From: an uncultured Chloracidobacterium sp.
Lineage (GTDB): Bacteria; Acidobacteriota; Blastocatellia; Pyrinomonadales; Pyrinomonadaceae
Length of the DNA: 64,000 nucleotides
NCBI GenBank assembly: GCA_964625555.1
Contig: CAZVDM010000001.1
Span: 13,573-77,572, forward strand
Direction: 5' to 3'
Part shown: in pieces, positions 4,235 through 50,186 of the stretch
Position numbering within the stretch: the first letter of the stretch is position 1
How the letters are laid out: every line of letters begins with the position of its first letter
The notes under the pieces: generated by a model
Told to the model about the DNA's origin: nothing
Databases searched by the model: none
Seen by the model: only the letters and a program-made list of their open reading frames with translations
Position numbers and translations under genes: made by a program

Positions 4235-4330
4235 GCGGAATAGAACGCGGATCAAGCGGATATGGCGGATCAAGGCGGATGTTAATATGAATTTCAGATC
4301 CGCGAAAATCCGCTCGATCCGCTTCATCCG
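4235..4330. repeat. Hairpin of inverted 9-mer arrays (GCGGATNNN units)
   Basis: The left arm is GCGGATCAA GCGGATATG GCGGATCAAG GCGGATGTT. The right arm is AGATCCGC GAAAATCCGC TCGATCCGC TTCATCCG, with about 4 units per arm. Confidence 0.75.
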
Positions 4331-4355: not shown

Positions 4356-5309
4356 ATGGACATCAACGATATTAAAATCGCCGCCGAACGGATACGGCCT
4401 TACGTCAGGCGGACACATTTGGAATACAGCAACAGCCTGAGTAAACGCATCGGCGTGCATACGTCGGTCAAATTCGAGTTGTTCCAGAAGACCGGAGCGT
4501 TCAAGGCCCGCGGGGCGTTTAACAAACTGCTGACAATGTCAGACGCCGAGCGCGCCAAGGGCGTGGTCGCGGTCAGCGGGGGCAATCATGCGCAGGCGGT
4601 GGCGTATTCCTCGAGCGTCCTGGGTGTTGACGCGGTGATACTAATGCCCGCGAATACGCCGCAGGTCTATGTCGATGCTACGCGGGGTTATGGGGCGACG
4701 GTGGAATTGCAAGAGAATATTGGAGCCGCGTTTGAGAGGGTAAAGGATTTTGAGGCCGAGGGCCGAGTCTTTGTGCATCCGTTTGACGACGAAGTGATCA
4801 TCGCGGGGCAGGGAACCGTCGGGTTGGAGATACTCGAAGACGCTCCGGACACAACAGATATCATCCTCAGCATCGGCGGAGGCGGTTTGGCGGGCGGAGT
4901 TGCGGTGGCGGCGAAGTCCATTGATCCAAACATAAGAATGTGGGCAGTGGAAACGGAAGGAGCCGACGCGATGTCGCGTGCCGTTGCGGCTGGAAAGGTA
5001 GTCGAGATGGACGCCATCACATCGATCGCAAAGACGCTCGGAGCACCTTATGTTTCCGATCTCACGCTCGGGATGGTGCAGAAATACTACGAATCGGTCA
5101 CGGTCGTCACCGATGCCGAAGCTGTCGAAGCGATAGTCTTTATCGCCGAACGCCTCAAGGTCATAACCGAACCCGCCGCCGCCGTGACACTGGTCGCTGC
5201 CGAAAAGCTTCGTGCCAATTTCAACGAAGACAGTCGCGTCGTTCTCATCCTCTGCGGCGGAAACACCGGCGTCAGCGACCTGTGCAGCTATCTTCCGCTG
5301 CTGGGTTAA
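4356..5309 (+). CDS. Threonine/serine dehydratase (PLP-dependent, short catabolic-type form)
   Basis: Contains the PLP-lysine motif TGAFKARGA and the Gly loop GGGGLAGG. The start is set at MDINDIKIAAERI (4356) because the upstream part of the ORF only reads through the repeat element. Confidence 0.85.
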   Translation: MDINDIKIAAERIRPYVRRTHLEYSNSLSKRIGVHTSVKFELFQKTGAFKARGAFNKLLTMSDAERAKGVVAVSGGNHAQAVAYSSSVLGVDAVILMPANTPQVYVDATRGYGATVELQENIGAAFERVKDFEAEGRVFVHPFDDEVIIAGQGTVGLEILEDAPDTTDIILSIGGGGLAGGVAVAAKSIDPNIRMWAVETEGADAMSRAVAAGKVVEMDAITSIAKTLGAPYVSDLTLGMVQKYYESVTVVTDAEAVEAIVFIAERLKVITEPAAAVTLVAAEKLRANFNEDSRVVLILCGGNTGVSDLCSYLPLLG

Positions 5310-5395
5310 GGTCAGAATGACGTGCGTGAGAGGGTGGCGTGAACTTGCGTGTCGATCGAGGTCCAGGCCGCCCGCTTACGCAGGCGGTTCTGACC
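5310..5395. repeat. REP-doublet (REPIN-like) palindromic element, copy 1
   Basis: GGTCAGAATGACGTGCGTGAGAGGGTGGCG ... CCGCCCGCTTACGCAGGCGGTTCTGACC. The better-preserved right arm (CCGCCCGC-TTAC-GCAGGCGG) is itself a stem-loop. The element starts immediately after the dehydratase stop codon. Confidence 0.7.
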
Positions 5396-6541: not shown

Positions 6542-9382
6542 CTATTTATTCAAATCGGGCAATATCGCGTCAAAGGCTTCGCGGATGGCGAGACGGTGCG
6601 CCGTGAGATGTTCGAGGAGTTCGGCGGGGGACCCGAGACCCATGCGTTCGGCGATCGTCGCAAGTGCAGTTTGGTTGGCGATCGGAAGCCGCGTCGTCCG
6701 GCCTATCGTGAGACGAAGCTGGTGATCGAGAGCCGAGAGGAATTCATGGCCGGCTCGCAAAGACTTGAGACTAGAGACGGGAGACGGGGGAAGCGAGACG
6801 GGAGACGGGAGACTAGAGACGGGAGACAGACTATCAGTCGCGGTCGAATGATTAGTATATTTGGTTATGAGTTTGTCTAGCATTGCCGCTGTGGAACGCG
6901 GATTCTCCGGTTCCTGTTCACCCTTCTCCCGTCTCTTGTCTCCTGTCTCATTGTCTTCACCAACGTCCGGCACATTATCTCTAAGCTGCAGATATCGCAT
7001 CGCAAAGTAGATATCGAGCATGCCGCCGCTGCCGTATTTGATATCGATGTCGCCGCCACGTTGCGGACGAGCACGCTGCTTTTCTAAGGCTAGCCGGACG
7101 CGGCGGGTCTCTTGTCGGAGTTCGTCCGCGTCGACCGTCAGGGCACGTTCATGGATGATGCGGCGGGTTTCACTCTCGACATTCCTGGCAAGGCTTTCAT
7201 CACCGCCGACGGCACGCAGTTTGACGAATGCGAGCATCTCCCAGATGGCCGCCGTATCTCGCATATAGTCGAGAAAGGCGTCGATGGAGATGGCTGTCAT
7301 TCCCTTCGAGCCAAACGGACGGAGGCGGAGATCGACTCGATACAGATTGCCGTCGCGAGTCATCGATGAGAGTGTCGTGGTAAAGAGTTCTACCGTCCGC
7401 GCGTAGAATTCCGCCGCCGACAAGCCGGCGATCTGGTGCCCCGGATCAAAATAGACGATCACCAGATCAAGGTCCGAGTCGTAATCAAGCCCACGGCCGC
7501 CGAGCTTTCCGAGTGCGAGGATCGCGATATCGAGATTGACTTCGTACGGACGATAGCGGTTGATCAATTCATCGCGGACGACCTCGAGAGCGGCCTCGAT
7601 ACACGCTTCGGCAAGCTCGGTCTGTGCCCGTTTCGCTTCGCTGAGCGTCAATTTGCCAAAGATGTCACGAACGACCAACTCAAGCAGCAGCCGCGACCAT
7701 ACCTTTCGCATAGCCGACAAACGGCGGCCGAAATCTCTCGTACCGTCGATCGCCGCGGTCATTATCATCTCGTAATCGGGCTGTTCAAACTCGTCGTCAG
7801 GGTCAAGTAGATCTACAGCGAGCTGTGGGTTAGCGGCCAGCATCGATGCAAAATGCGGCGAAATGGCGATCACACGTTCGAGGACAGCGGCACTTTTCGT
7901 GGTCGGATCATAGGTGACGGACGATTTCTCGATCGAAGCAAGAATGTGTGAACGGGTTCTCTCGGCCGTGTCCGGTACCTCGGTAATGTCGAGATCGGTC
8001 ACGGCGGCAGGCGTTTCACCGAATATCCGTGTAAAGATACGGCTGACATTTCCGGTAGTTTCGATGAGGTCCGATTCGAATTCACCTGCGGAAGCAAAGG
8101 CCATTTTGCGGGCGAGCAGAGCACGTTTTTCAGGTTCAGCGGGTATCGTGTGGGTCTGAACGCCGTTCTTCATTTGCAGCACATGCTCGGCACGGCGCAG
8201 GAATTCGTAGGCGGCGGAAAGTTCGGACAATTCCGATTCTGAAATGTACTTGCGGTCCGCCAGCCGGGACAAACTGATAAGCGTGTGAGGTGACCGCAGC
8301 CATTTATCTTTGCCGCCATAAGCGAGCTGAAGTGCCTGGGCGAGAAATTCGATCTCGCGGATTCCGCCGCGGCCGAGTTTGACGTCGAAACCGCGTTTGT
8401 TGATGTTCTCGAGATCGATCCGTTCCTTTGAACGGCGAACGTTTGCGAGTGCGGTCTCTATCGTTTCTTTGCGTGAAAAGATCAGATCCTCGACCGCAGA
8501 TATGAATTGCTTGAATAGATCGGTGTCGCCTGCGCAGCCGCGGGAACGGATCAGCACCTGCCGTTCCCAGGCACGAGCCTCGGTCTTGAAATAGCGGATC
8601 ATATCGCCGACCGAGAATGCCAAAGCTCCGAGCGAACCGTGCGGACGAAGCCGTAAGTCGACTCGATATGCTGCACCCTCGCCGGACGGCGAGCCGACGA
8701 GTTTTGTGATATATTCGGCGAGTTTTACAAAATACTCGCGGTTTGTAACGCTCTCGCGCGAACCGCCTGTTGTCTTTCCCTCGGCGGAATAGATGAATAA
8801 TAGGTCGATATCGGAAGAATAGTTGAGTTCCTTAGAGCCGAGCTTGCCGAGTGCAGCAATACAGAATCCCGAGGGAGTAAAGCGGCCTTTGGCATCAGTT
8901 TGCTGCGGCTGGCCGAATCGATTATCGATCTCACGCCGGGCGCGTTCGAGAGCGGACTCAAGGATCGCGTCGGCAAGATTGGAGATCTCTTCGGTGATCT
9001 CGGCTATAGTAGCAAGCCGGCGAATATCGCGGAGGTAGATCCGCAGAAGTTCCCGGCGACGAAAACGTGCAAAGAGAACCTGAGGTTCGAGCTGGGAATT
9101 GGTAAGAGCGAAGCGGGCCAGCGATTCGAGCAGCTCTTCGCGGCCGCGAACGCCTGATTCGAGGCGTTTGCGGCCAAGCCACCAAATGTAGTCGGGATGC
9201 TGAAGCAGCGTGGTCGACAGCAGCGGGCTGAACGAGACCAGAGTCAGCACATCGGACAAAAGGCCTTCTTGTTTGAGCAGCTTCTCGGATTGCGACGGAT
9301 GCTGCTCGGCAAACTGGCCGAGAAATCGCCGGGCTGCATCGGCGTCGGGCAGGTCTCGGATCAATTGTTCTACTTTGCGCAT
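6542..9382 (-). CDS. glnE: Bifunctional glutamine synthetase adenylyltransferase/adenylyl-removing enzyme
   Basis: 946 aa with two nucleotidyltransferase modules (GKLGSKELNYSSDIDL and GKLGGRGLDYDSDLDL) plus GlnE-specific helical domains. Confidence 0.9.
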   Translation of the reverse strand: MRKVEQLIRDLPDADAARRFLGQFAEQHPSQSEKLLKQEGLLSDVLTLVSFSPLLSTTLLQHPDYIWWLGRKRLESGVRGREELLESLARFALTNSQLEPQVLFARFRRRELLRIYLRDIRRLATIAEITEEISNLADAILESALERARREIDNRFGQPQQTDAKGRFTPSGFCIAALGKLGSKELNYSSDIDLLFIYSAEGKTTGGSRESVTNREYFVKLAEYITKLVGSPSGEGAAYRVDLRLRPHGSLGALAFSVGDMIRYFKTEARAWERQVLIRSRGCAGDTDLFKQFISAVEDLIFSRKETIETALANVRRSKERIDLENINKRGFDVKLGRGGIREIEFLAQALQLAYGGKDKWLRSPHTLISLSRLADRKYISESELSELSAAYEFLRRAEHVLQMKNGVQTHTIPAEPEKRALLARKMAFASAGEFESDLIETTGNVSRIFTRIFGETPAAVTDLDITEVPDTAERTRSHILASIEKSSVTYDPTTKSAAVLERVIAISPHFASMLAANPQLAVDLLDPDDEFEQPDYEMIMTAAIDGTRDFGRRLSAMRKVWSRLLLELVVRDIFGKLTLSEAKRAQTELAEACIEAALEVVRDELINRYRPYEVNLDIAILALGKLGGRGLDYDSDLDLVIVYFDPGHQIAGLSAAEFYARTVELFTTTLSSMTRDGNLYRVDLRLRPFGSKGMTAISIDAFLDYMRDTAAIWEMLAFVKLRAVGGDESLARNVESETRRIIHERALTVDADELRQETRRVRLALEKQRARPQRGGDIDIKYGSGGMLDIYFAMRYLQLRDNVPDVGEDNETGDKRREKGEQEPENPRSTAAMLDKLITKYTNHSTATDSLSPVSSLPSPVSLPPSPVSSLKSLRAGHEFLSALDHQLRLTIGRTTRLPIANQTALATIAERMGLGSPAELLEHLTAHRLAIREAFDAILPDLNK
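6767..6956. repeat. Inverted heptamer arrays inside glnE
   Basis: Nine tandem GAGACGG-type heptamers lie at 6767-6829 and five reverse-complement CNGTCTC heptamers at 6922-6956. They are translated as SLSPVSSLPSPVSLPPSPVSSLKS and EDNETGDKRREKGEQEPE. Confidence 0.75.
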
Positions 9383-9421: not shown

Positions 9422-10900
9422 TCATCGGCGGAATCGCTTTCGATCGATCTCGTATTTTACTATTTTATAGCCGAGAATGCGTTCGGTCGAATCGAGCATT
9501 ATCGCGGCCTTCGCGACATTGCCGCGTGTGGATTTTAGCGTATCGATGATCAAGTCCCGCTCAAAGGCCTCGACCGCCGACGCAAGCGTTACACGGGTCT
9601 CGGTACCGCTGACCTCGGCGGTTTGCAGCGTCGGCGGCAAATGATGGCCGTGAATGACATTCGAATCGCAGACGAGCACCGAGCGTTCGATGACATTTTC
9701 AAGCTCACGCACATTGCCGGGATAATGATAGGCAGTGAGCATGTCGATCGCCGGCGTCGAAATGCGCTTGACGTTCTTTTTGTGTTCACGCTCGTACTTT
9801 TCGAGGAAATGCTCGGCAAGCAGCAGAATGTCGGACTTTCGTTCGCGTAGCGGCGGAAGATAAATCGTAAAGCCGCCCAGCTGATCTAACAGTTCACCGT
9901 CAAACGTGCCCACGCGAACCGCGTCCGCCAGATCCTGACTGGACGATGCGATAAGACGGACGTTGACGGGAAACTCTTCGCCGCTGTCCGTGCGTACGAA
10001 TTTGCGTTCCTGCACCGCACGGAGCACCTTGGACTGGAGATGGAGCGGCAGACCGCCCACTTCGTCAAAATAAAGCGTTCCGCCGTCGGCAAGTTCAAAG
10101 CGGCCCTTCTTATCCGATCCGAAGATCTCGTTTTCGATCAACGCGTCGGGCACATCAGAGCAGTTTAGCTTTACGAACGAGCGTTTCGAACGCAGGCTGT
10201 TGTAATGGATCGCGCCGGCGATAAGTTCCTTACCGGTTCCGTGTTCTCCGCGGAGAAGCACGGTCGAATTCGATCGTGCGATCTGCGTTACTTGATCGAG
10301 GGCGGCGCGCATCGCTCCGGAGTTGCCGATGAGCTGCGACAGGTCATACTTTTGCCTGAGCTCCTGCTTTAGGTGAAGATTTTCCTCGGCGAGTTTGCGG
10401 TTTGCGGCGTCCATCATCCGCTCGACGAGCATCGCCTGCGCAATAACAGAGGCGAATGCACCGAGCACTCTGACCACTCGGTTCTCTTCAACGCGCGATC
10501 CGCCGCGAAAACCCGCCGCGACCATGCCGACGGTCTTGCCTTTCACCGATACCGGGACAGCCACGAGGAAGCGGGTTTGCGTGCCAAATGCCAGGAAATC
10601 AAGTGCACGATCGGTACCGACATCATCGATAGCGAGAGGTTTTGAAAGCTCGAACATACGCCAAAGGCTGCTCTTTGCAATGCGCGATTCGAGGCGGCGA
10701 AAATCGGCGACGCCGACGCCTTCGGCCGCGACGAGGTCGGCGACGCCGTCGTCGGCACGCTGCCGGACGATGAATGCAACGTCAGCCGACAATGCGTGAA
10801 TTACGGTCTTCGTCACGACGCTTGCTCCATCGCGAAGCCCGCTGCCGTCCGCGAAAGCCCTGGCCGCCTTCGCGATGAGATCGATGTGGTCGAGTTTCAT
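9422..10900 (-). CDS. GAF-domain AAA+ transcriptional regulator of the NtrC/TyrR class (GAFTGA loop absent), C-terminal Fis-type HTH
   Basis: Contains Walker A GEHGTGKE, an R-finger region and WPGNVREL-like YPGNVRELEN. Where NtrC has FGHEKGAFTGA, this protein has FGSDKKGRFELADGGTLYFDEVG. The start is set at MKLDHIDLI (10900). Confidence 0.85.
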   Translation of the reverse strand: MKLDHIDLIAKAARAFADGSGLRDGASVVTKTVIHALSADVAFIVRQRADDGVADLVAAEGVGVADFRRLESRIAKSSLWRMFELSKPLAIDDVGTDRALDFLAFGTQTRFLVAVPVSVKGKTVGMVAAGFRGGSRVEENRVVRVLGAFASVIAQAMLVERMMDAANRKLAEENLHLKQELRQKYDLSQLIGNSGAMRAALDQVTQIARSNSTVLLRGEHGTGKELIAGAIHYNSLRSKRSFVKLNCSDVPDALIENEIFGSDKKGRFELADGGTLYFDEVGGLPLHLQSKVLRAVQERKFVRTDSGEEFPVNVRLIASSSQDLADAVRVGTFDGELLDQLGGFTIYLPPLRERKSDILLLAEHFLEKYEREHKKNVKRISTPAIDMLTAYHYPGNVRELENVIERSVLVCDSNVIHGHHLPPTLQTAEVSGTETRVTLASAVEAFERDLIIDTLKSTRGNVAKAAIMLDSTERILGYKIVKYEIDRKRFRR

Positions 10901-11089
10901 TTTACCTACAAAATTGTAGCGCAAACGGCAGAGCAATGGCGGAAACACGACCGGTAGGGAGTGTGTTCGTACGGCTCGGCGATGCCCAACGTGCTCTAAC
11001 GATCGACGGATAAAGTCGATCACCGGGAATACAATCCCTACCGGTCGTGATTCTGCCTCGCACGACACGCGATACGCTATAATCAAGTA

Positions 11090-12046
11090 GTGGAAACGCG
11101 TGTACACATCACGGCTGCATCCGAGCACAACAAAATGCGGCTCGAAGACTTCCTGCTCGGGCAATTTCGCTCGTTGAGCAAGATGTATCTTCGCGCGGTT
11201 GTGAAGGCCGAAAGGTGCGAAGTAAACGGACGTTGGGAAAACCGCGGTTACAAACTGCGGCCGAACGATTTCGTTGAGATCATGGTCGATCACACCCGCG
11301 GGACCGCTATGCAGCCGCAGGAGATCGGGCTCGATATCATCTTCGAAGACGACGAACTCATCGTCATCAACAAGCCCGAAGACATGTTGATGCATCCCTC
11401 GCATCGGGACAACAGCGGGACGCTGCTGAATGCCCTCGCGCATTACCTTAATGAAGGTGAGGAGTGGAGGAGTGGAGGAGTAGAGGAGTTAGATCACGAT
11501 CTCCCTCACTCCTCTACTCCTTCACTCCTGTACTCCTCCACTCGCCCAGTCGTCCGCCCGGGCCTTCCGCACAGGCTTGACAGGCTTACGTCGGGGCTTG
11601 TGGTCGTTACTAAGACCGCGCGGGCTCATCGGGTTATTTCGGGGCATTTTTTGAAGAAAAGAGTAGAGAAGCTGTATCTTGCGTTGGTTGACGGAGTGGT
11701 TGAGCAGGATAGCGGGACGATCGACGCGCCTATTGGGCGGTTTGCTGATATCAAACTTTGGGGCGTGAAGGACGACGGGAAGCAGGCTGTGACCAATTAC
11801 AAGGTTCGTGCGCGTTACGACAATACGACACTGCTCGAACTGGAGCCGGTCACGGGCCGTACGAATCAGCTTCGGATCCACACCGCGCATATTGGGCATC
11901 CGATCGTGGGCGATGTGCAGCGTGCGGGGACGGAATACCGGCGTCTATGTTTGCACGCCTATCGTCTTGCGTTCCCGCACCCGACGACGCGGGAGATGGC
12001 GCGGTTTGAGAGGGAAGTTGTGTTCCGGTCAGAACCGCCTGCGTAA
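11090..12046 (+). CDS. RluA-family pseudouridine synthase with N-terminal S4 domain
   Basis: Contains the HRLDRLTSGLVVV catalytic motif and an S4-like N-terminus. GTG start at 11090, with an alternative ATG at 11135. The last 6 codons and the stop lie inside a REPIN-like element. Confidence 0.85.
   Translation: METRVHITAASEHNKMRLEDFLLGQFRSLSKMYLRAVVKAERCEVNGRWENRGYKLRPNDFVEIMVDHTRGTAMQPQEIGLDIIFEDDELIVINKPEDMLMHPSHRDNSGTLLNALAHYLNEGEEWRSGGVEELDHDLPHSSTPSLLYSSTRPVVRPGLPHRLDRLTSGLVVVTKTARAHRVISGHFLKKRVEKLYLALVDGVVEQDSGTIDAPIGRFADIKLWGVKDDGKQAVTNYKVRARYDNTTLLELEPVTGRTNQLRIHTAHIGHPIVGDVQRAGTEYRRLCLHAYRLAFPHPTTREMARFEREVVFRSEPPA
11458..11543. repeat. Hairpin of inverted octamer arrays inside the rluA-family gene
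   Basis: The left arm is TGAGGAGT GGAGGAGT GGAGGAGT AGAGGAGT. An 18-nt loop contains the palindrome AGATCACGATCT. The right arm is ACTCCTCT ACTCCTTC ACTCCTGT ACTCCTCC ACTC. Confidence 0.8.
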
Positions 12047-12113
12047 GCGGGCGGCATGGACGTTGAATTTGCGCGACGGGCGTGCCCCCCGCTTATGCAG
12101 GGGGTTCTGGCAC
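12027..12113. repeat. REP-doublet (REPIN-like) palindromic element, copy 2
   Basis: GGTCAGAACCGCCTGCGTAAGCGGGCGG ... CCCCCCGCTTATGCAGGGGGTTCTGGCAC, with the same arm sequence as copy 1. Each arm is a GC stem with a GTAA or TTAT loop. Confidence 0.75.
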
Positions 12114-12132
12114 AGAGCTGCGACCCAAGAAT

Positions 12133-13119
12133 CTACTGCAAAACTATATCAAACGCCTTGCCGCGGGTGCCTTTTTTGAAACGGACGGTGACCGCGTAGT
12201 TTTTGCCGGCCTCGAGCGTCCAGCAGCCCTCGCCGTAGCCTTCGTAGTACTTGTTATCGGCGTAAAGCGTATTCGACCATACTTTGTAACAGTACTTGCC
12301 CGTTCCGTTAAAGGTGTACGACTGTTTGGCGATGGGTGTATTCGTATTGACGGCGAAGTCGCGCCTTAGGAGGTTTGTGCCGAACTGCATAATTATGTTC
12401 TCGGCGCGTTGTCCGGCAGCAACGTTCAGTTCGTCGGTGATAGTGATCTTTCCTTGCGGGGCGGCGGCGCGTGCGCCGTATAGCTTTTGGATTCCGACGA
12501 TGTCGAGCGGCGACAGAGTTCCGTCGTTATTCCAACGCGGGTTGCAGTAATTCATTACGCTGTCGGGGTCGTACACCGTCAAGAGCAGGCCGCCGGTCTT
12601 TTTGCTCTCAAGATTGCAGGTGGAATCGGCGCGGTCCTGTTCGTGCATCAGACCGATCGCGTGGCCGAACTCGTGCACCGCAACGCTTGATATACACGAC
12701 ATTCGCCGATTAGCAGCCTGGCATCCGGGCGAGAAGTTCTTGAACGTAAAGTTCAGCTCCATTCCGTTCTTCTGGCCGTCCATATATCGCCCGATACCTG
12801 AATTCGAACGCGTATCGGTAACAAGGATGCGTACGCCTTTGCTCGCGGCGAGACATTGCTGCCAGCCGTAAAAGTTTATGTTCGCCGCGGCTTGCCAGGT
12901 GGCTGTGACGCGGTCCTTGACCAGTGCCGTCTCGGAGTTCCAGCCCGTCGGATTCTCCCAGCAAACAGGAATGTACGCGATGCCGTCCGTCGATGCGGGC
13001 CACTGCCAACCGGCACCCGTGATCGCCATCGACCGGTTCGAGACCTGGGCGTTCGCGGACATGATCAGCCCCGCAAACAGCACGATCAACACCGCCGCTG
13101 CCCGTTTACAACAATCCAT
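12133..13119 (-). CDS. Secreted astacin-like zinc metalloprotease (M12A) with a C-terminal beta domain
   Basis: Has a signal peptide and the HEFGHAIGLMHEQDRAD motif, which matches the astacin signature HExxHxxGxxHE. Confidence 0.8.
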   Translation of the reverse strand: MDCCKRAAAVLIVLFAGLIMSANAQVSNRSMAITGAGWQWPASTDGIAYIPVCWENPTGWNSETALVKDRVTATWQAAANINFYGWQQCLAASKGVRILVTDTRSNSGIGRYMDGQKNGMELNFTFKNFSPGCQAANRRMSCISSVAVHEFGHAIGLMHEQDRADSTCNLESKKTGGLLLTVYDPDSVMNYCNPRWNNDGTLSPLDIVGIQKLYGARAAAPQGKITITDELNVAAGQRAENIIMQFGTNLLRRDFAVNTNTPIAKQSYTFNGTGKYCYKVWSNTLYADNKYYEGYGEGCWTLEAGKNYAVTVRFKKGTRGKAFDIVLQ

Positions 13120-17089: not shown

Positions 17090-17189
17090 ATGCAAAAAGA
17101 TCAAAGGCTGAAACGCAGCTTTTGGAGATCGCTTCCAATGGAAGTGGTCATATCTCGTAGGTATCAAGGGACGAGAGGAGTAGTTATAC

Positions 17190-26761: not shown

Positions 26762-26769
26762 GTTTAACG

Positions 26770-26837
26770 GACAATTGATAATGGATAATGGAAAGTAAAT
26801 TGCCATTATCCGTTTTCCATTGTCCATTTTCCATTGA
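26770..26837. repeat. Hairpin of inverted heptamer arrays between acpP and fabF
   Basis: The left arm is GACAATT GATAATG GATAATG GAAAGTA. The right arm is CCATTAT CCGTTTT CCATTGT CCATTTT CCATTGA and ends 3 nt before the fabF ATG. Confidence 0.75.
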
Positions 26838-35363: not shown

Positions 35364-35621
35364 CTATTTGGTTGCAGGCTTCGCTGTGGCAGGCGTTGCA
35401 GGCTTGGTGTCTGCAGGCTTCATGGTCGACGAAGTTGCCGGTGCGGTCGTCGCCGGGGTTGCCGGTGCGGTCGTTGCCGGGGTCGCCGGTGCGGTCGTCG
35501 TCGGCGTTGCAGGCTTCACGTTGGTGTTGCCGTTCTTGTTGTTAGCTGCAGTGTCGCCGCCGCAAGCCATTCCGAGAGCGCTGAGGCCCAAAACTGCTGA
35601 TAATACAAATACTTTTGTCAT
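35364..35621 (-). CDS. Small lipoprotein with tandem ATPATTAP repeats
   Basis: Signal peptide with lipobox LGMAC. About three 24-bp tandem DNA repeats encode TTAPATPA. GGAG lies upstream. Confidence 0.6.
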   Translation of the reverse strand: MTKVFVLSAVLGLSALGMACGGDTAANNKNGNTNVKPATPTTTAPATPATTAPATPATTAPATSSTMKPADTKPATPATAKPATK

Positions 35622-50081: not shown

Positions 50082-50149
50082 AGTAAAGAGTAAAAGTGAA
50101 AGAGTGAAAAAGTATCGCGAGATAAACTCGAACTTTTTCACTCTTTCAC
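50082..50149. repeat. Hairpin of inverted 8-mer arrays (GTGAAAGA units)
   Basis: GTGAAAGAGTGAAAAAGT (50096-50113) and ACTTTTTCACTCTTTCAC (50132-50149) form a perfect 18-bp inverted repeat. There are extra AGTAAAG units on the left. Confidence 0.75.
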
Positions 50150-50186
50150 AGTTTCCGAGCGTTTGTTCAGTTGTTGGAAATTGCTA

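What the first reader, a model, noticed from the sequence alone, without database searches (positions are those of the whole stretch)
11458..11543. 86-nt hairpin of inverted GGAGGAGT octamers read through in frame in a pseudouridine synthase gene
Four GGAGGAGT-type octamers, an 18-nt loop containing AGATCACGATCT, and 4.5 ACTCCTNN octamers sit between ...LLNALAHYL and RPGLPHRLDRLTSG of the RluA-family protein. They add about 29 residues (NEGEEWRSGGVEELDHDLPHSSTPSLLYSST). As I recall E. coli RluD, only about 9 residues separate HY from the HRLD motif. The element therefore sits in a surface loop immediately before the catalytic Asp motif without breaking the frame. The GGAGG cores are also Shine-Dalgarno-like sequences inside a coding region.
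Basis: partly seen in the sequence, partly recalled or inferred. Interest (0 to 1): 0.7.

Follow-up and report, generated by a model that had tools for sequence, protein, structure and literature searches.

The report
Translated repeat hairpin inside rluD-like gene
An 85-base DNA hairpin built from inverted runs of an 8-base repeat sits in frame inside an intact RNA-modifying enzyme gene of a soil acidobacterium, at a loop where over half of 206 related genes also carry extra sequence of several unrelated kinds, most of it hairpin-forming where the DNA could be read.

Summary
Window 11458-11543 holds four GGAGGAGT-type octamers, an 18-nt loop and 4.5 ACTCCTNN octamers. It folds at -62.7 kcal/mol (z -7.1). 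It lies in frame in a 318-aa RluD-like pseudouridine synthase, 9 codons before the catalytic HRLD motif.

It adds 28 residues to a loop that is 6-7 residues long in empty orthologues and in E. coli RluD. AlphaFold2 predicts the insert to be disordered. The rest of the gene is under purifying selection (dN/dS 0.09-0.17).

The main new result is that this loop is the gene's only internal indel site. Of 206 Pyrinomonadaceae orthologues, 114 carry 14-56 extra-loop residues there, always in frame. The inserts belong to several unrelated hairpin families. Relatives within dS 1.4 of the window show four different occupants or an empty site.

GGAGGAGT hairpins also occur at many other loci, each with a different loop. 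In the window's glnE gene the two arms of a similar hairpin flank conserved host codons.

Best reading: a non-adaptive, translated palindromic repeat tolerated in a permissive loop. Its arms are probably built and kept complementary by slippage and template switching. It is a new variant of the known "protein-coding palindrome" kind.

The parts
11090..12046 (+). Host gene: RluD-like (RluA-family) pseudouridine synthase, 318 aa, GTG start
   Evidence: ORF list. PF00849 E = 4.9e-28. PDB RluD hits E about 1e-36. Foldseek best hit 2ist, E = 6e-25. dN/dS 0.09-0.17 against relatives. Synteny with the sigma-54 activator, peptidase and TerC genes is conserved in L082 and L083 and in L105; L104 keeps the same order but has no peptidase gene called.
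11453..11554 (+). Variable-loop codons (34 codons, EGEEWRSGGVEELDHDLPHSSTPSLLYSSTRPVV) between the conserved ...YLN and RPGLPHRLD. The same interval is 6-7 codons in empty orthologues.
   Evidence: AlphaFold2 pLDDT averages 45-61 over residues 121-150.
11458..11489 (+). Left arm: four GGAGGAGT-type octamers. In frame they read (G)EEWRSGGVEE.
11490..11507 (+). 18-nt loop TAGATCACGATCTCCCTC, which contains the small palindrome AGATC-AC-GATCT
   Evidence: The loop is unique to this locus: the 16 other GGAGGAGT hairpin loci found carry other loops, two of them shared by two contigs each.
11508..11543 (+). Right arm: 4.5 ACTCCTNN octamers, the complement of the left arm. In frame they read HSSTPSLLYSST.
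   Evidence: The arms pair over 34 nt at 88% complementarity. RNA fold -62.7 kcal/mol, z = -7.1.
11570..11581 (+). Codons for HRLD, the catalytic-Asp motif of the RluA family, 9 codons after the hairpin
   Evidence: H161, R162, L163 and D164 are invariant in 60 orthologues.
12028..12111 (+). REPIN-like double palindrome (TCAGAACCGCCTGCGTAAGCGGGCGG ... CCCCCCGCTTATGCAGGGGGTTCTGG) overlapping the 3' end of the gene. Its TAA (12044-12046) is the gene's stop codon (...VVF-RSEPPA*). The same family fills the variable loop in relative L082.
   Evidence: -71.4 kcal/mol, the most stable fold in the window. In L081 and L082 the gene ends VVF-TGA. The L082 loop insert is shown.
10946..11049 (.). Long-range inverted repeat (CACGACCGGTAGGGA ... 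TCCCTACCGGTCGTG, 15-nt arms about 74 nt apart) in the divergent intergenic region just upstream of the gene
   Evidence: (-58.9 kcal/mol). Its relation to the finding was not established.

Best explanation
The element is a hairpin-forming repeat made of two inverted arrays of an 8-nt unit around a unique centre. It arose at the DNA level inside the one loop of this RluD-like gene that tolerates extra residues. It is transcribed and translated straight through as about 28 extra, disordered, surface-exposed residues just before the catalytic HRLD strand.

It survives for three reasons. Its length is a multiple of three. Its unit is free of stop codons in all six frames. The loop is structurally permissive. 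It is best read as non-adaptive (selfish or mutation-driven) DNA filtered by selection on the protein, not as a device the enzyme needs.

Shown:
- In-frame read-through is the rule at this site.
- The gene is under purifying selection.
- The occupant of this site differs between close relatives.
- The same unit type is present at unrelated loci.
- Older inserts have lost their pairing while the peptide persists.

Inferred:
- How the arms are made. I favour in-situ growth (about 50% within this explanation). Replication slippage expands a short repeat next to a small inverted repeat, and intrastrand template switching (the quasipalindrome-correction mechanism) copies the changes onto the partner arm. 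Both arms would then lengthen and co-evolve around pre-existing sequence.
- The alternative is insertion of ready-made foldback-like mobile elements (about 35%).
- REPIN-like occupants of the same loop in relatives are clearly dispersed repeats that arrived by insertion.
For: 1. Translated, functional host. All 80 species-level loci read through the site in frame, including the 33 with inserts of 14 aa or more. The same holds for 114 of 206 orthologues overall. dN/dS outside the insert is 0.09-0.17. HRLD is invariant. The fold matches RluD.

2. Permissive loop. pLDDT is 45-61 across the insert and above 90 in the flanks. It is the only internal indel region between residues 21 and 305 in 206 sequences.

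3. No sequence requirement. Unrelated families occupy the same loop: GGAGGAGT-type, AATGCGG-type, GAGTCGA-type, REPIN-like and ASRLRV..ASETLAV-type. Within the window's own shallow clade (dS 1.4 or less) the states are GGAGGAGT (window, L081), REPIN-like (L082), AATGCGG (L104), a degraded hairpin (L105, -32.6 kcal/mol) and empty (L083, L085).

4. Pairing decays while the peptide stays. The LTQRRKxAK...ESAIRNPxSAI inserts are (ACGCAAAG)n plus (AATCCGC)n, the two arrays are not complementary, and they fold at only -9 to -23 kcal/mol.

5. Stop-codon filter. All six intragenic units tested are stop-free in six frames. Five of seven units of arrays found outside this loop and the glnE site are not; four of those seven were checked to be intergenic.

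6. The element type is general. There are 16 metagenome loci with GGAGGAGT inverted arrays, none in rluD, with 14 different loops and 2-9 recognisable units per arm as I read the printed sequences. There are also 166 tiny ORFs over such repeats, none of the 120 listed with a Pfam domain. One in-frame copy sits in an ABC-ATPase-like ORF (L093).

7. Support for in-situ arm growth. In glnE the two arms flank conserved host codons (NPRSTxxMLDKL) that are present in orthologues without arrays. The unit differs by genome: GAGACGG, GGAGAAGA or GGAGGAGT. Each arm matches its own partner better than the orthologous arms do: scores 21 and 27 within a genome against 8-18 between genomes. In AATGCGG-type inserts the outermost unit contains the conserved Asn121 codon AAT.

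8. Template switching that homogenises inverted-repeat arms is an established mutational mechanism (PMC7202029), and it has been described in coding sequence (PMC8604942).
Against: - Occupancy of this one loop is very high (55%). The comparable glnE site is filled in only about 5 of 60 orthologues, and no other loop of the gene carries anything. Pure tolerance does not obviously explain such a hot spot. A targeting mechanism or a benefit cannot be excluded.
- Arm complementarity at glnE has been kept across dS of about 0.7 or more despite unit turnover. That could equally reflect selection for the structure.
- The three most stable folds around this gene sit at its 5' end, middle and 3' end, which could hint at a role in expression.
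- No step of the proposed slippage and template-switch pathway was observed directly. For the rluD hairpin itself I could not show that the centre is ancestral host sequence (the comparison is ambiguous).
- No target-site duplication was found, but none is required for some insertion mechanisms.
Confidence: 0.6

Rival explanations
1. The hairpin is a cis-acting nucleic-acid structure kept by selection. As RNA it could pause or throttle translation between the N-terminal S4-like part and the catalytic domain, set mRNA half-life, or act as an RNase site. As DNA it could affect replication or transcription. The peptide would then be a by-product.
For: - Very high stability: -62.7 kcal/mol, z = -7.1.
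- Arms remain complementary at the analogous glnE site although the unit sequence has changed between genomes.
- This loop is occupied in 55% of orthologues, often by strongly folding inserts (-50 to -100 kcal/mol).
- The gene is also bracketed by strong folds upstream (10946-11049) and at its stop codon (12028-12111).
- The left arm carries four Shine-Dalgarno-like GGAGG cores.
Against: - 45% of orthologues, including the window's near relatives L083 and L085, have only 6-13 residues and no hairpin.
- Many long inserts no longer fold (z about 0), so the structure is not maintained once lost.
- Occupants belong to unrelated families with different lengths and positions within the loop.
- There is no match to any curated RNA family. 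Only generic sub-threshold miRNA-precursor hairpin hits appear (20-36 bits against gathering scores of 58-137).
- There is no U-tract or terminator signature.
- Complementarity can be kept by template switching without selection.
Confidence: 0.2
2. The insert is an adaptive protein feature: a new charged, flexible loop next to the active site that changes RNA substrate binding or ribosome-assembly interactions of the synthase. The palindromic DNA would only be the raw material.
For: - The position is 9 codons before the catalytic Asp motif, on the face where RluA-family enzymes meet RNA (family knowledge; position).
- Some insert peptides persist long after the DNA pairing has decayed. For example, LTQRRKxAK...SAIRNPxSAI is seen in many branches. 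This is compatible with retention for protein reasons.
- Palindromic repeats have been proposed as a source of new protein segments in Rickettsia (cited in PMC3733652 and PMC10969869).
Against: - The insert peptides are unrelated in sequence and charge between close relatives, and nearly half of the orthologues lack them.
- The segment is predicted to be disordered, with no confident contacts.
- The peptide sequence is dictated by the repeat unit (GGVEEWRS / TPPLLHSS periodicity), and the same peptide appears in an unrelated ABC-ATPase-like protein and in glnE of L104.
Confidence: 0.1
3. The element is not really part of an expressed protein. The gene could be a pseudogene. The hairpin could be an assembly artefact. 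Or the segment could be skipped, by translational bypassing as in T4 gene 60 or the mitochondrial byp elements, or by excision.
For: Strong hairpins can cause assembly errors and can promote ribosome take-off in known bypassing systems (general knowledge). Nothing in the data points this way.
Against: - Identical DNA is present in an independent assembly (L081).
- dN/dS is 0.09-0.17 and the catalytic motif is intact.
- All 33 insert-bearing species-level loci are in frame and stop-free. Bypassing or excision would not require this. The chance expectation for frame alone is (1/3)^33.
- Intragenic repeat units are specifically the stop-free ones.
Confidence: 0.03

Closest known systems
Rickettsia palindromic elements (RPEs), the 'protein-coding palindromes' of Ogata, Claverie and colleagues, as summarised in PMC3733652 and PMC10969869
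   Same: Both are hairpin-forming repeats inserted in frame in otherwise normal housekeeping genes. Both are translated as extra segments compatible with the fold, are found in many unrelated genes, and are interpreted as selfish DNA filtered by protein function.
   Different: RPEs are families of about 100-150-bp elements with a conserved full-length consensus and a conserved encoded peptide. Here only the 8-nt unit of the arms is shared between loci. The loops are unique, unit number varies, and the arms can flank pre-existing host codons (glnE). The phylum differs (Acidobacteriota, Pyrinomonadaceae-like). One loop is reused by several families.
REP / REPIN elements, including intragenic REPs (PMC3733652, PMC3116915)
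   Same: Both are short palindromic repeats, often paired in inverted orientation, mostly extragenic but occasionally inside ORFs or supplying stop codons. A REPIN-like family is present in this window (5310-5392 and 12028-12111). That family fills the same rluD loop in relative L082 and supplies the stop codon of the window's gene.
   Different: The GGAGGAGT hairpin has no conserved REP consensus and no GTAG/CGTC end tag. It is built from tandem units and has no near-identical copies in the window. No RAYT gene was looked for or linked.
Short tandemly repeated heptamers and octamers of bacteria (cyanobacterial STRR-type and long simple sequence repeats; TAACTGA repeats of Beggiatoaceae, PMC4679880; G-rich heptamers, PMC4692102)
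   Same: Both have 7-8-nt units in short tandem arrays, are abundant in particular lineages, are mostly intergenic, and are thought to expand by slippage. Only units without stop codons are tolerated in ORFs; the same argument is made for TAACTGA in PMC4679880.
   Different: In the papers I read, those repeats are described as direct arrays. Here the defining feature is a pair of mutually complementary arrays forming a long hairpin, and the unit sequence differs from locus to locus.
Quasipalindrome-associated template-switch mutation (PMC7202029) and its effect on coding sequence (PMC8604942)
   Same: This is a mechanism that makes imperfect inverted repeats more perfect and homogenises their arms, including within genes. 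It would explain co-evolving arms around an unchanged centre.
   Different: The known events are small corrections of a few bases. Growth of 30-70-nt tandem-unit arms by repeated slippage and switching has not been described, to my knowledge, and is inferred here.
Eukaryotic foldback (FB) transposons (from my own knowledge; not checked in the library)
   Same: Both have long inverted arms composed of short tandem repeats, with variable arm length and a variable central region.
   Different: FB elements are on a kilobase scale, are eukaryotic, and are associated with transposase-bearing copies and target duplications. There is no evidence of any of these here. This is an analogy only.

Membership tests
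RluA/RluD-family pseudouridine synthase (host gene) | PseudoU_synth_2 catalytic domain | tested here: met
   PF00849 E = 4.9e-28, 98.7 bits against a cut-off of 26.8. PDB RluD hits E about 1e-36. Foldseek 2ist E = 6e-25.
RluA/RluD-family pseudouridine synthase (host gene) | Catalytic Asp in the HRLD motif | tested here: met
   HRLD at residues 161-164 (11570-11581), invariant in 60 orthologues.
RluA/RluD-family pseudouridine synthase (host gene) | Specificity for 23S rRNA positions 1911/1915/1917 (RluD proper) | not testable with these tools
   There are only source annotations of homologues and full-length alignment to RluD including the N-terminal part.
Protein-coding palindromes (RPE-like) | Hairpin-forming repeat inserted in frame in a gene that stays functional | tested here: met
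Protein-coding palindromes (RPE-like) | Insert lies in a surface or loop position compatible with the fold | tested here: met
   The AlphaFold2 model has the insert at pLDDT 45-61 between confident elements. This is a prediction only.
Protein-coding palindromes (RPE-like) | Member of a dispersed family with a conserved full-length consensus | tested here: not met
   The 16 other GGAGGAGT hairpin loci share the unit only. There are 14 different loops, none like the window's, and the number of recognisable units per arm ranges from about 2 to 9 in the printed sequences. There is no second copy in the window.
REP / REPIN | Conserved 20-40-bp imperfect palindrome, often with a GTAG or CGTC end tag, present in many near-identical copies | tested here: not met
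   There is no such consensus in 11458-11543. By contrast, the 12028-12111 and 5310-5392 elements share a 23-mer: 0 mismatches at 5368-5390 and 12032-12054, and 3 mismatches at 12085-12107.
REP / REPIN | Cognate RAYT transposase in the genome | not tested
   The window's ORFs were not screened for Y1 transposases, and the whole genome is not available.
MITE | Terminal inverted repeats plus a target-site duplication | tested here: not met
   The arms are inverted, but no direct duplication flanks 11458-11543 (GAAGGT | ... | GCCCAG) when compared with the empty sites of L083 and L085.
Intrinsic terminator | GC-rich stem-loop followed by a U-tract | tested here: not met
   No terminator-like site is found at the hairpin, and the sequence after the stem is CGCCCAGTCGTCC.
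Known RNA families (Rfam 15) | Score at or above a family's gathering threshold | tested here: not met
   There are only generic miRNA-precursor hits of 20-36 bits against gathering scores of 58-137.
Translational bypassing elements (T4 gene 60 / byp-like) | Insert need not be in frame or stop-free because ribosomes skip it | tested here: not met
   33 of 33 insert-bearing species-level loci are in frame and open. Intragenic units are all stop-free.
Tandem heptamer/octamer simple repeats (STRR / LSSR type) | Head-to-tail copies of a 7-8-nt unit | tested here: met
   Period 8, 3.9 and 4.6 copies. The inverted pairing of two arrays is an additional feature and not part of that definition.

The most novel reading that the evidence does not exclude
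These tandem-repeat hairpins are a distinct, undescribed class of self-perpetuating micro-palindromes in Pyrinomonadaceae-like soil bacteria. Starting from any short inverted repeat, the two arms grow and co-evolve in place (by slippage plus intrastrand template switching, or by an unknown dedicated enzyme) around pre-existing sequence. They can therefore invade coding regions on both sides of conserved codons and generate new disordered protein segments. The RluD loop would then be a natural hot spot where the process can be watched: four different occupant states or an empty site in the five lineages within dS 1.4.
Probability: 0.3. Interest if true: 0.8.

Novelty: new variant of a known kind. 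Interest (0 to 1): 0.6.

Why it matters
In-frame palindromic repeats in bacterial genes are best known from Rickettsia, where they raised the idea that selfish hairpin DNA can create new protein segments. Three things would matter here if they hold up.

1. The same phenomenon appears in an unrelated, free-living soil lineage, and in a different form. The arms are tandem 7-8-nt units and the centre is locus-specific.

2. A single surface loop of a conserved rRNA-modifying enzyme is filled in 55% of 206 orthologues by several unrelated hairpin families, with turnover among close relatives. This is a natural series for measuring how fast such DNA arrives, decays and is purged. It also lets one test whether the site is targeted or merely tolerant.

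3. The glnE case, where complementary arrays flank conserved host codons and change unit between genomes while staying complementary, argues that long hairpins can be built in place rather than inserted. If confirmed, this would extend template-switch mutagenesis from small corrections to the construction of 30-70-nt arms.

There is also a practical point. Gene callers turn the intergenic copies into many tiny spurious "hypothetical proteins" (166 clusters for this one unit type).

Tried and rejected
- **Known RNA families.** Rfam with permissive thresholds over 10800-12300 gave only generic miRNA-precursor hairpin hits far below gathering scores. I rejected any known RNA family.
- **Terminator or promoter.** The consensus scan found nothing at the hairpin.
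- **Classical mobile element.** I looked for a second copy in the window (only one weak 3-mismatch hit, at 17169) and for target-site duplications against empty sites. Neither was found.
- **Dispersed family with conserved loops.** The metagenome scan found 16 loci, but the loops all differ. I also estimated that, if units were drawn at random from the possible 7-8-mers, a collection of this size could yield a similar number of hits for one unit. The scan alone therefore does not prove a mobile family.
- **In-frame copies in other proteins.** A protein search with an idealised repeat peptide returned only domain-less ORFs of 34-104 aa, meaning intergenic copies miscalled as genes. Two of them on one 392-kb contig lie 700 bp apart in a region of tiny ORFs and were uninformative.
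- **Extra constraint on the hairpin.** There are no differences in 102 nt between the window and the 98%-identical L081, but only about 1.8 are expected. This is not significant.
- **Ancestral centre.** I tried to decide whether the 18-nt loop derives from the ancestral loop codons (GAT CTC against GAC CTT for Asp-Leu). The comparison is ambiguous.
- **Literature.** Searches for such hairpins in Acidobacteria or Blastocatellia, and for tandem-heptamer hairpins, found nothing directly relevant. The library does not hold most subscription journals, so this is weak evidence of absence.
- **Insert tree.** The neighbour-joining tree used to order the inserts rests on about 270 residues and is not reliable enough to count independent gains.
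Full report
**1. The observation**

- four octamers TGAGGAGT, GGAGGAGT, GGAGGAGT, AGAGGAGT at 11458-11489;
- an 18-nt loop TAGATCACGATCTCCCTC at 11490-11507, containing AGATCACGATCT;
- ACTCCTCT, ACTCCTTC, ACTCCTGT, ACTCCTCC, ACTC at 11508-11543.

Tandem Repeats Finder calls two period-8 arrays of 3.9 and 4.6 copies. The repeat finder gives 34-nt arms, 88% complementary, 12 nt apart. A 16-mer made of two units matches 8 times in the window against 0.24 expected, and 7 of the matches lie here.

The RNA fold is -62.7 kcal/mol (z = -7.1, 0 of 200 shuffles as stable). The DNA fold is -29.9 kcal/mol (z = -5.9). In a sliding 110-nt scan it is the second most stable fold of the 64-kb window.

The same DNA, base for base, is present in an independent assembly of a strain 98% identical in DNA over the shared 2.7 kb (L081). 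It is therefore real sequence and not an assembly artefact.

**2. The host gene**

The element lies in ORF 11090..12046 (+), 318 aa.
- The protein has a PseudoU_synth_2 domain (PF00849, E = 4.9e-28).
- It matches E. coli RluD at E of about 1e-36.
- An AlphaFold2 model (mean pLDDT 84.8) has E. coli RluD 2ist as its best structural match (E = 6e-25).
- The nearest homologues are named Pyrinomonadaceae or Acidobacteria. Gene order (sigma-54 activator, this gene, a metallopeptidase-like gene, TerC) is conserved in L082, L083 and L105; L104 keeps the same order but has no peptidase gene called.
- The alignment to RluD breaks exactly at the element. Query 2-120 aligns to RluD 2-123 and query 153-280 to RluD 128-255.
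- Outside the insert, dN/dS against four relatives is 0.09-0.17.
- The HRLD catalytic motif (11570-11581) is invariant in 60 orthologues.
- The insert region has pLDDT 45-61 between a confident helix (112-120) and the catalytic strand.

**3. What the orthologues show**

I aligned 206 orthologues: 120 proteins from the homology search, plus the window and the 85 loci held at that point (80 species-level genome loci, L081-L085).

*Length of the interval between ...YLN and RPGLxHRLD.*
- It is 6-13 residues in 92 sequences. The mode is 7 (43 sequences).
- It is 14-56 residues in 114 sequences.
- Among the 80 species-level loci, 33 carry 14 or more residues. All 80 read through in frame.
- It is the only internal indel region of the gene. 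Between residues 21 and 305, only 2-3 sequences have any other indel, of at most 7 residues.

*The inserts are not one family*. The classes are:
- purine-rich GGAGGAGT / GGAGAAG types (peptides like EEWRSGGVEE...HSSTPSLL, or EEEKRR...SSSPLPF);
- AATGCGG heptamer hairpins (AECGxRNAE...SAFRxPHSAFI; for example L072 at -101 kcal/mol, and L074);
- GAGTCGA heptamers (L047);
- a REPIN-like double palindrome (SEPPAxAGG...PPAxAGGSD; L005, L027, L082);
- an ASRLRV...ASETLAV palindrome (L010);
- composite inserts with (ACGCAAAG)n on the left and (AATCCGC)n on the right. These two arrays are not complementary and fold weakly, at -9 to -23 kcal/mol (L004, L009, L011, L020, L028).

*Turnover is fast.* In the window's own shallow clade (dS to the window 0.11-1.37 for the four relatives measured) the site holds:
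- the GGAGGAGT hairpin in the window and L081;
- a REPIN-like element in L082;
- an AATGCGG hairpin in L104;
- a degraded hairpin in L105;
- nothing (6 residues) in L083, L084 and L085.

**4. The element type elsewhere**

The window holds other hairpins made of inverted tandem arrays, each with its own unit:
- 4247-4330 (GCGGATCAAG-like);
- 26765-26836 (GATAATG-like);
- 50082-50150 (AGTGAAAG-like);
- 6767-6956 (GAGACGG);
- a single array at 1604-1637.

By ORF context, all but the glnE one are intergenic.

A scan of metagenome contigs for GAGGAGTGGAGGAGT, a gap of 8-38 nt, then ACTCCTNNACTCC found 16 loci. None is in an rluD gene. They carry 14 different loops (two loops are each shared by two contigs, probably the same locus sampled twice), none like the window's. 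By my reading of the printed sequences the arms hold about 2 to 9 recognisable units. One copy (L093) is in frame in a 429-aa ABC-ATPase-like ORF, between the signature motif and Walker B.

A protein search with an idealised repeat peptide returned 166 ORFs (34-104 aa among the 120 listed); none of the 120 listed carries a Pfam domain. I take these to be intergenic copies miscalled as genes.

The unit type is therefore widespread, but only the unit is shared, not the whole element. With a collection this large, the scan alone cannot distinguish a mobile family from recurrent independent origin.

**5. A second in-frame case that bears on mechanism**

In the window's glnE-like gene (minus strand, about 6542-9382) the two GAGACGG arrays are both in frame. 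They lie on either side of about 100 nt that encode a conserved host segment (NPRSTAAMLDKL...).
- L083 lacks the arrays but has the core (RSTPFMLGRL).
- 55 of 60 other orthologues show a plain 38-41-residue interval containing the RST core.
- The window's relatives have arrays at the same two positions but with other units: GGAGAAGA in L082 and L105, and GGAGGAGT in L104. The last is the unit that sits in rluD in the window.
- Local alignment scores show that each left arm matches the reverse complement of its own right arm better than it matches orthologous arms. The scores are 21 for the window and 27 for L104, against 8-18 across genomes. L082 is not distinct.

So a ready-made hairpin was not simply dropped in. 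Complementary arrays exist on both sides of pre-existing sequence, and they change together.

In the AATGCGG inserts of rluD, the outermost left unit includes the conserved Asn121 codon AAT, and the right arm ends in the GCA TTC ATC (Ala-Phe-Ile) codons. Some short, apparently empty loops also end in ...AFI. I read this as compatible with growth from, and collapse back to, a short local inverted repeat.

**6. A filter by the reading frame**

A unit of 7 or 8 nt cycles through all three frames. An array is therefore readable only if the unit and its complement lack stop codons in every phase.
- All six intragenic units tested are open in six frames: GGAGGAGT, GAGACGG, AATGCGG, GAGTCGA, ACGCAAAG and AATCCGC.
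- Five of seven units of arrays found outside this loop and the glnE site are not open. The four from the window are intergenic by ORF context; the context of the other three was not checked.
- The REPIN-like family normally contains TAA. In the window its copy at 12028-12111 supplies the stop codon of this very gene (...VVF-RSEPPA-TAA). Strain L081 and L082 end VVF-TGA. In the loop copy of L082 that TAA reads TCA.

**7. Explanation**

The best-supported reading is a DNA-level, non-adaptive hairpin repeat that is translated as a disordered loop. It is kept only because it is open, a multiple of three, and in a permissive place (confidence 0.6).

I favour in-situ arm building by replication slippage plus intrastrand template switching. 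That mechanism is established for small quasipalindrome corrections (PMC7202029), and it is reported to homogenise inverted-repeat arms in coding sequence (PMC8604942). It explains the locus-specific centres, the flanking of host codons in glnE and the co-evolving arms. Insertion of foldback-like mobile elements remains possible, and insertion clearly applies to the REPIN-like occupants.

What this does not explain well is the 55% occupancy of this one loop. The glnE site is filled in only about 5 of 60 orthologues, and no other loop of the gene carries anything. A targeting mechanism or a benefit is not excluded.

The rivals are:
- **A selected RNA or DNA structure (0.2).** It is supported by the stability, by the maintained complementarity, and by the strong folds at the gene's 5' end, middle and 3' end. 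It is weakened by the empty sites in near relatives, by decayed inserts, by the absence of an Rfam family and by the absence of a terminator.
- **An adaptive protein loop (0.1).** It is weakened by the unrelated peptides and by the same peptide appearing in unrelated proteins.
- **Artefact, pseudogene or bypassing (0.03).** It is contradicted by the independent assembly, by dN/dS and by 33 of 33 in-frame inserts.

**8. Comparison with known systems**

It works like the Rickettsia palindromic elements and the intragenic REPs (PMC3733652, PMC10969869): hairpin repeats read through in frame in functional genes. It is not a member of those families. It has no conserved full-length consensus, no REP tag and no target duplication.

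It shares the 7-8-nt tandem unit with bacterial heptamer repeats (PMC4679880, PMC4692102), but adds the paired, complementary arrangement. It resembles eukaryotic foldback elements only by analogy.

I found no description of such hairpins in Acidobacteria in the searchable library. That library omits most subscription journals.

**9. Verdict**

It is a new variant of a known kind. Three features are unusual: tandem-unit arms, a single hypervariable loop reused by several hairpin families with fast turnover, and a sister case where the arms flank conserved codons. Interest 0.6.

Noticed in passing
window 6767-6827 and 6925-6956 (minus-strand glnE-like ORF, about 6542-9382): This is a second in-frame tandem-repeat hairpin. 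(GAGACGG)n and its complement flank about 100 nt of conserved host codons (NPRSTAAMLDKL). Relatives have other units at the same two positions: GGAGAAGA in L082 and L105, and GGAGGAGT in L104. L083 and 55 of 60 other orthologues have no arrays.
   Followed up: yes
window 12028-12111: An 84-nt REPIN-like double palindrome, the most stable fold in the window (-71.4 kcal/mol), overlaps the 3' end of the rluD-like gene. Its TAA is the gene's stop codon (...VVF-RSEPPA*). In the 98%-identical strain L081 and in L082 the gene ends VVF-TGA, so the 3' end differs between very close strains.
   Followed up: partly
window 5310-5392: This is another copy of the same REPIN-like family (exact 23-mer GAACCGCCTGCGTAAGCGGGCGG on the minus strand), directly after the stop of the ORF that ends at 5309, which by synteny with L082 I take to be the PALP-domain gene.
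   Followed up: no
window 10946-11049: A perfect 15-nt inverted repeat (CACGACCGGTAGGGA / TCCCTACCGGTCGTG) with arms about 74 nt apart (-58.9 kcal/mol) lies in the divergent intergenic region between the sigma-54 activator gene and the rluD-like gene. Ten of the differences from strain L081 fall in this intergenic region.
   Followed up: no
window 4247-4330, 26765-26836, 50082-50150 and 1604-1637: These are intergenic hairpins made of inverted tandem 7-10-nt units, each with a different unit (GCGGATCAAG-, GATAATG- and AGTGAAAG-like), plus a single GTCAGTT array between two genes. Their units contain stop codons in one orientation, unlike the intragenic ones.
   Followed up: partly
L093 7703-8992 (metagenome contig Ga0163210_1001289): A 429-aa ABC-ATPase-like ORF (Walker A GPSGSGKST, Walker B VVFDEFT) carries a GGAGGAGT-type hairpin in frame (EEKRSGGVEERRRPSHSSTPLLPHSS) between the signature region and Walker B.
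   Followed up: partly
L004, L009, L011, L020 and L028, rluD variable loop: These inserts are made of two different tandem arrays that are not complementary: (ACGCAAAG)3-4 on the left and (AATCCGC)4 on the right. They read LTQRRKxAK...SAIRNPxSAI and fold weakly (-9 to -23 kcal/mol). They may be decayed or composite remnants of two hairpins.
   Followed up: partly
window 11161-11221: Fifteen of the 25 nucleotide differences between the window and strain L081 in the 5' part of the rluD-like gene cluster in 61 nt. This looks like a short recombination tract rather than scattered mutation.
   Followed up: no
window 35434-35510: A 24-nt tandem repeat (GTTGCCGGTGCGGTCGTCGCCGGG, 3.2 copies, 88% matches) was not covered by any ORF of 100 aa or more in my scan.
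   Followed up: no
proteins P0195-P0314: More than 100 'hypothetical proteins' of 34-104 aa in public collections are translations of GGAGGAGT-type repeat hairpins, including records attributed to cyanobacteria (Plectonema, Tolypothrix). They are probably spurious gene calls over intergenic repeats.
   Followed up: partly
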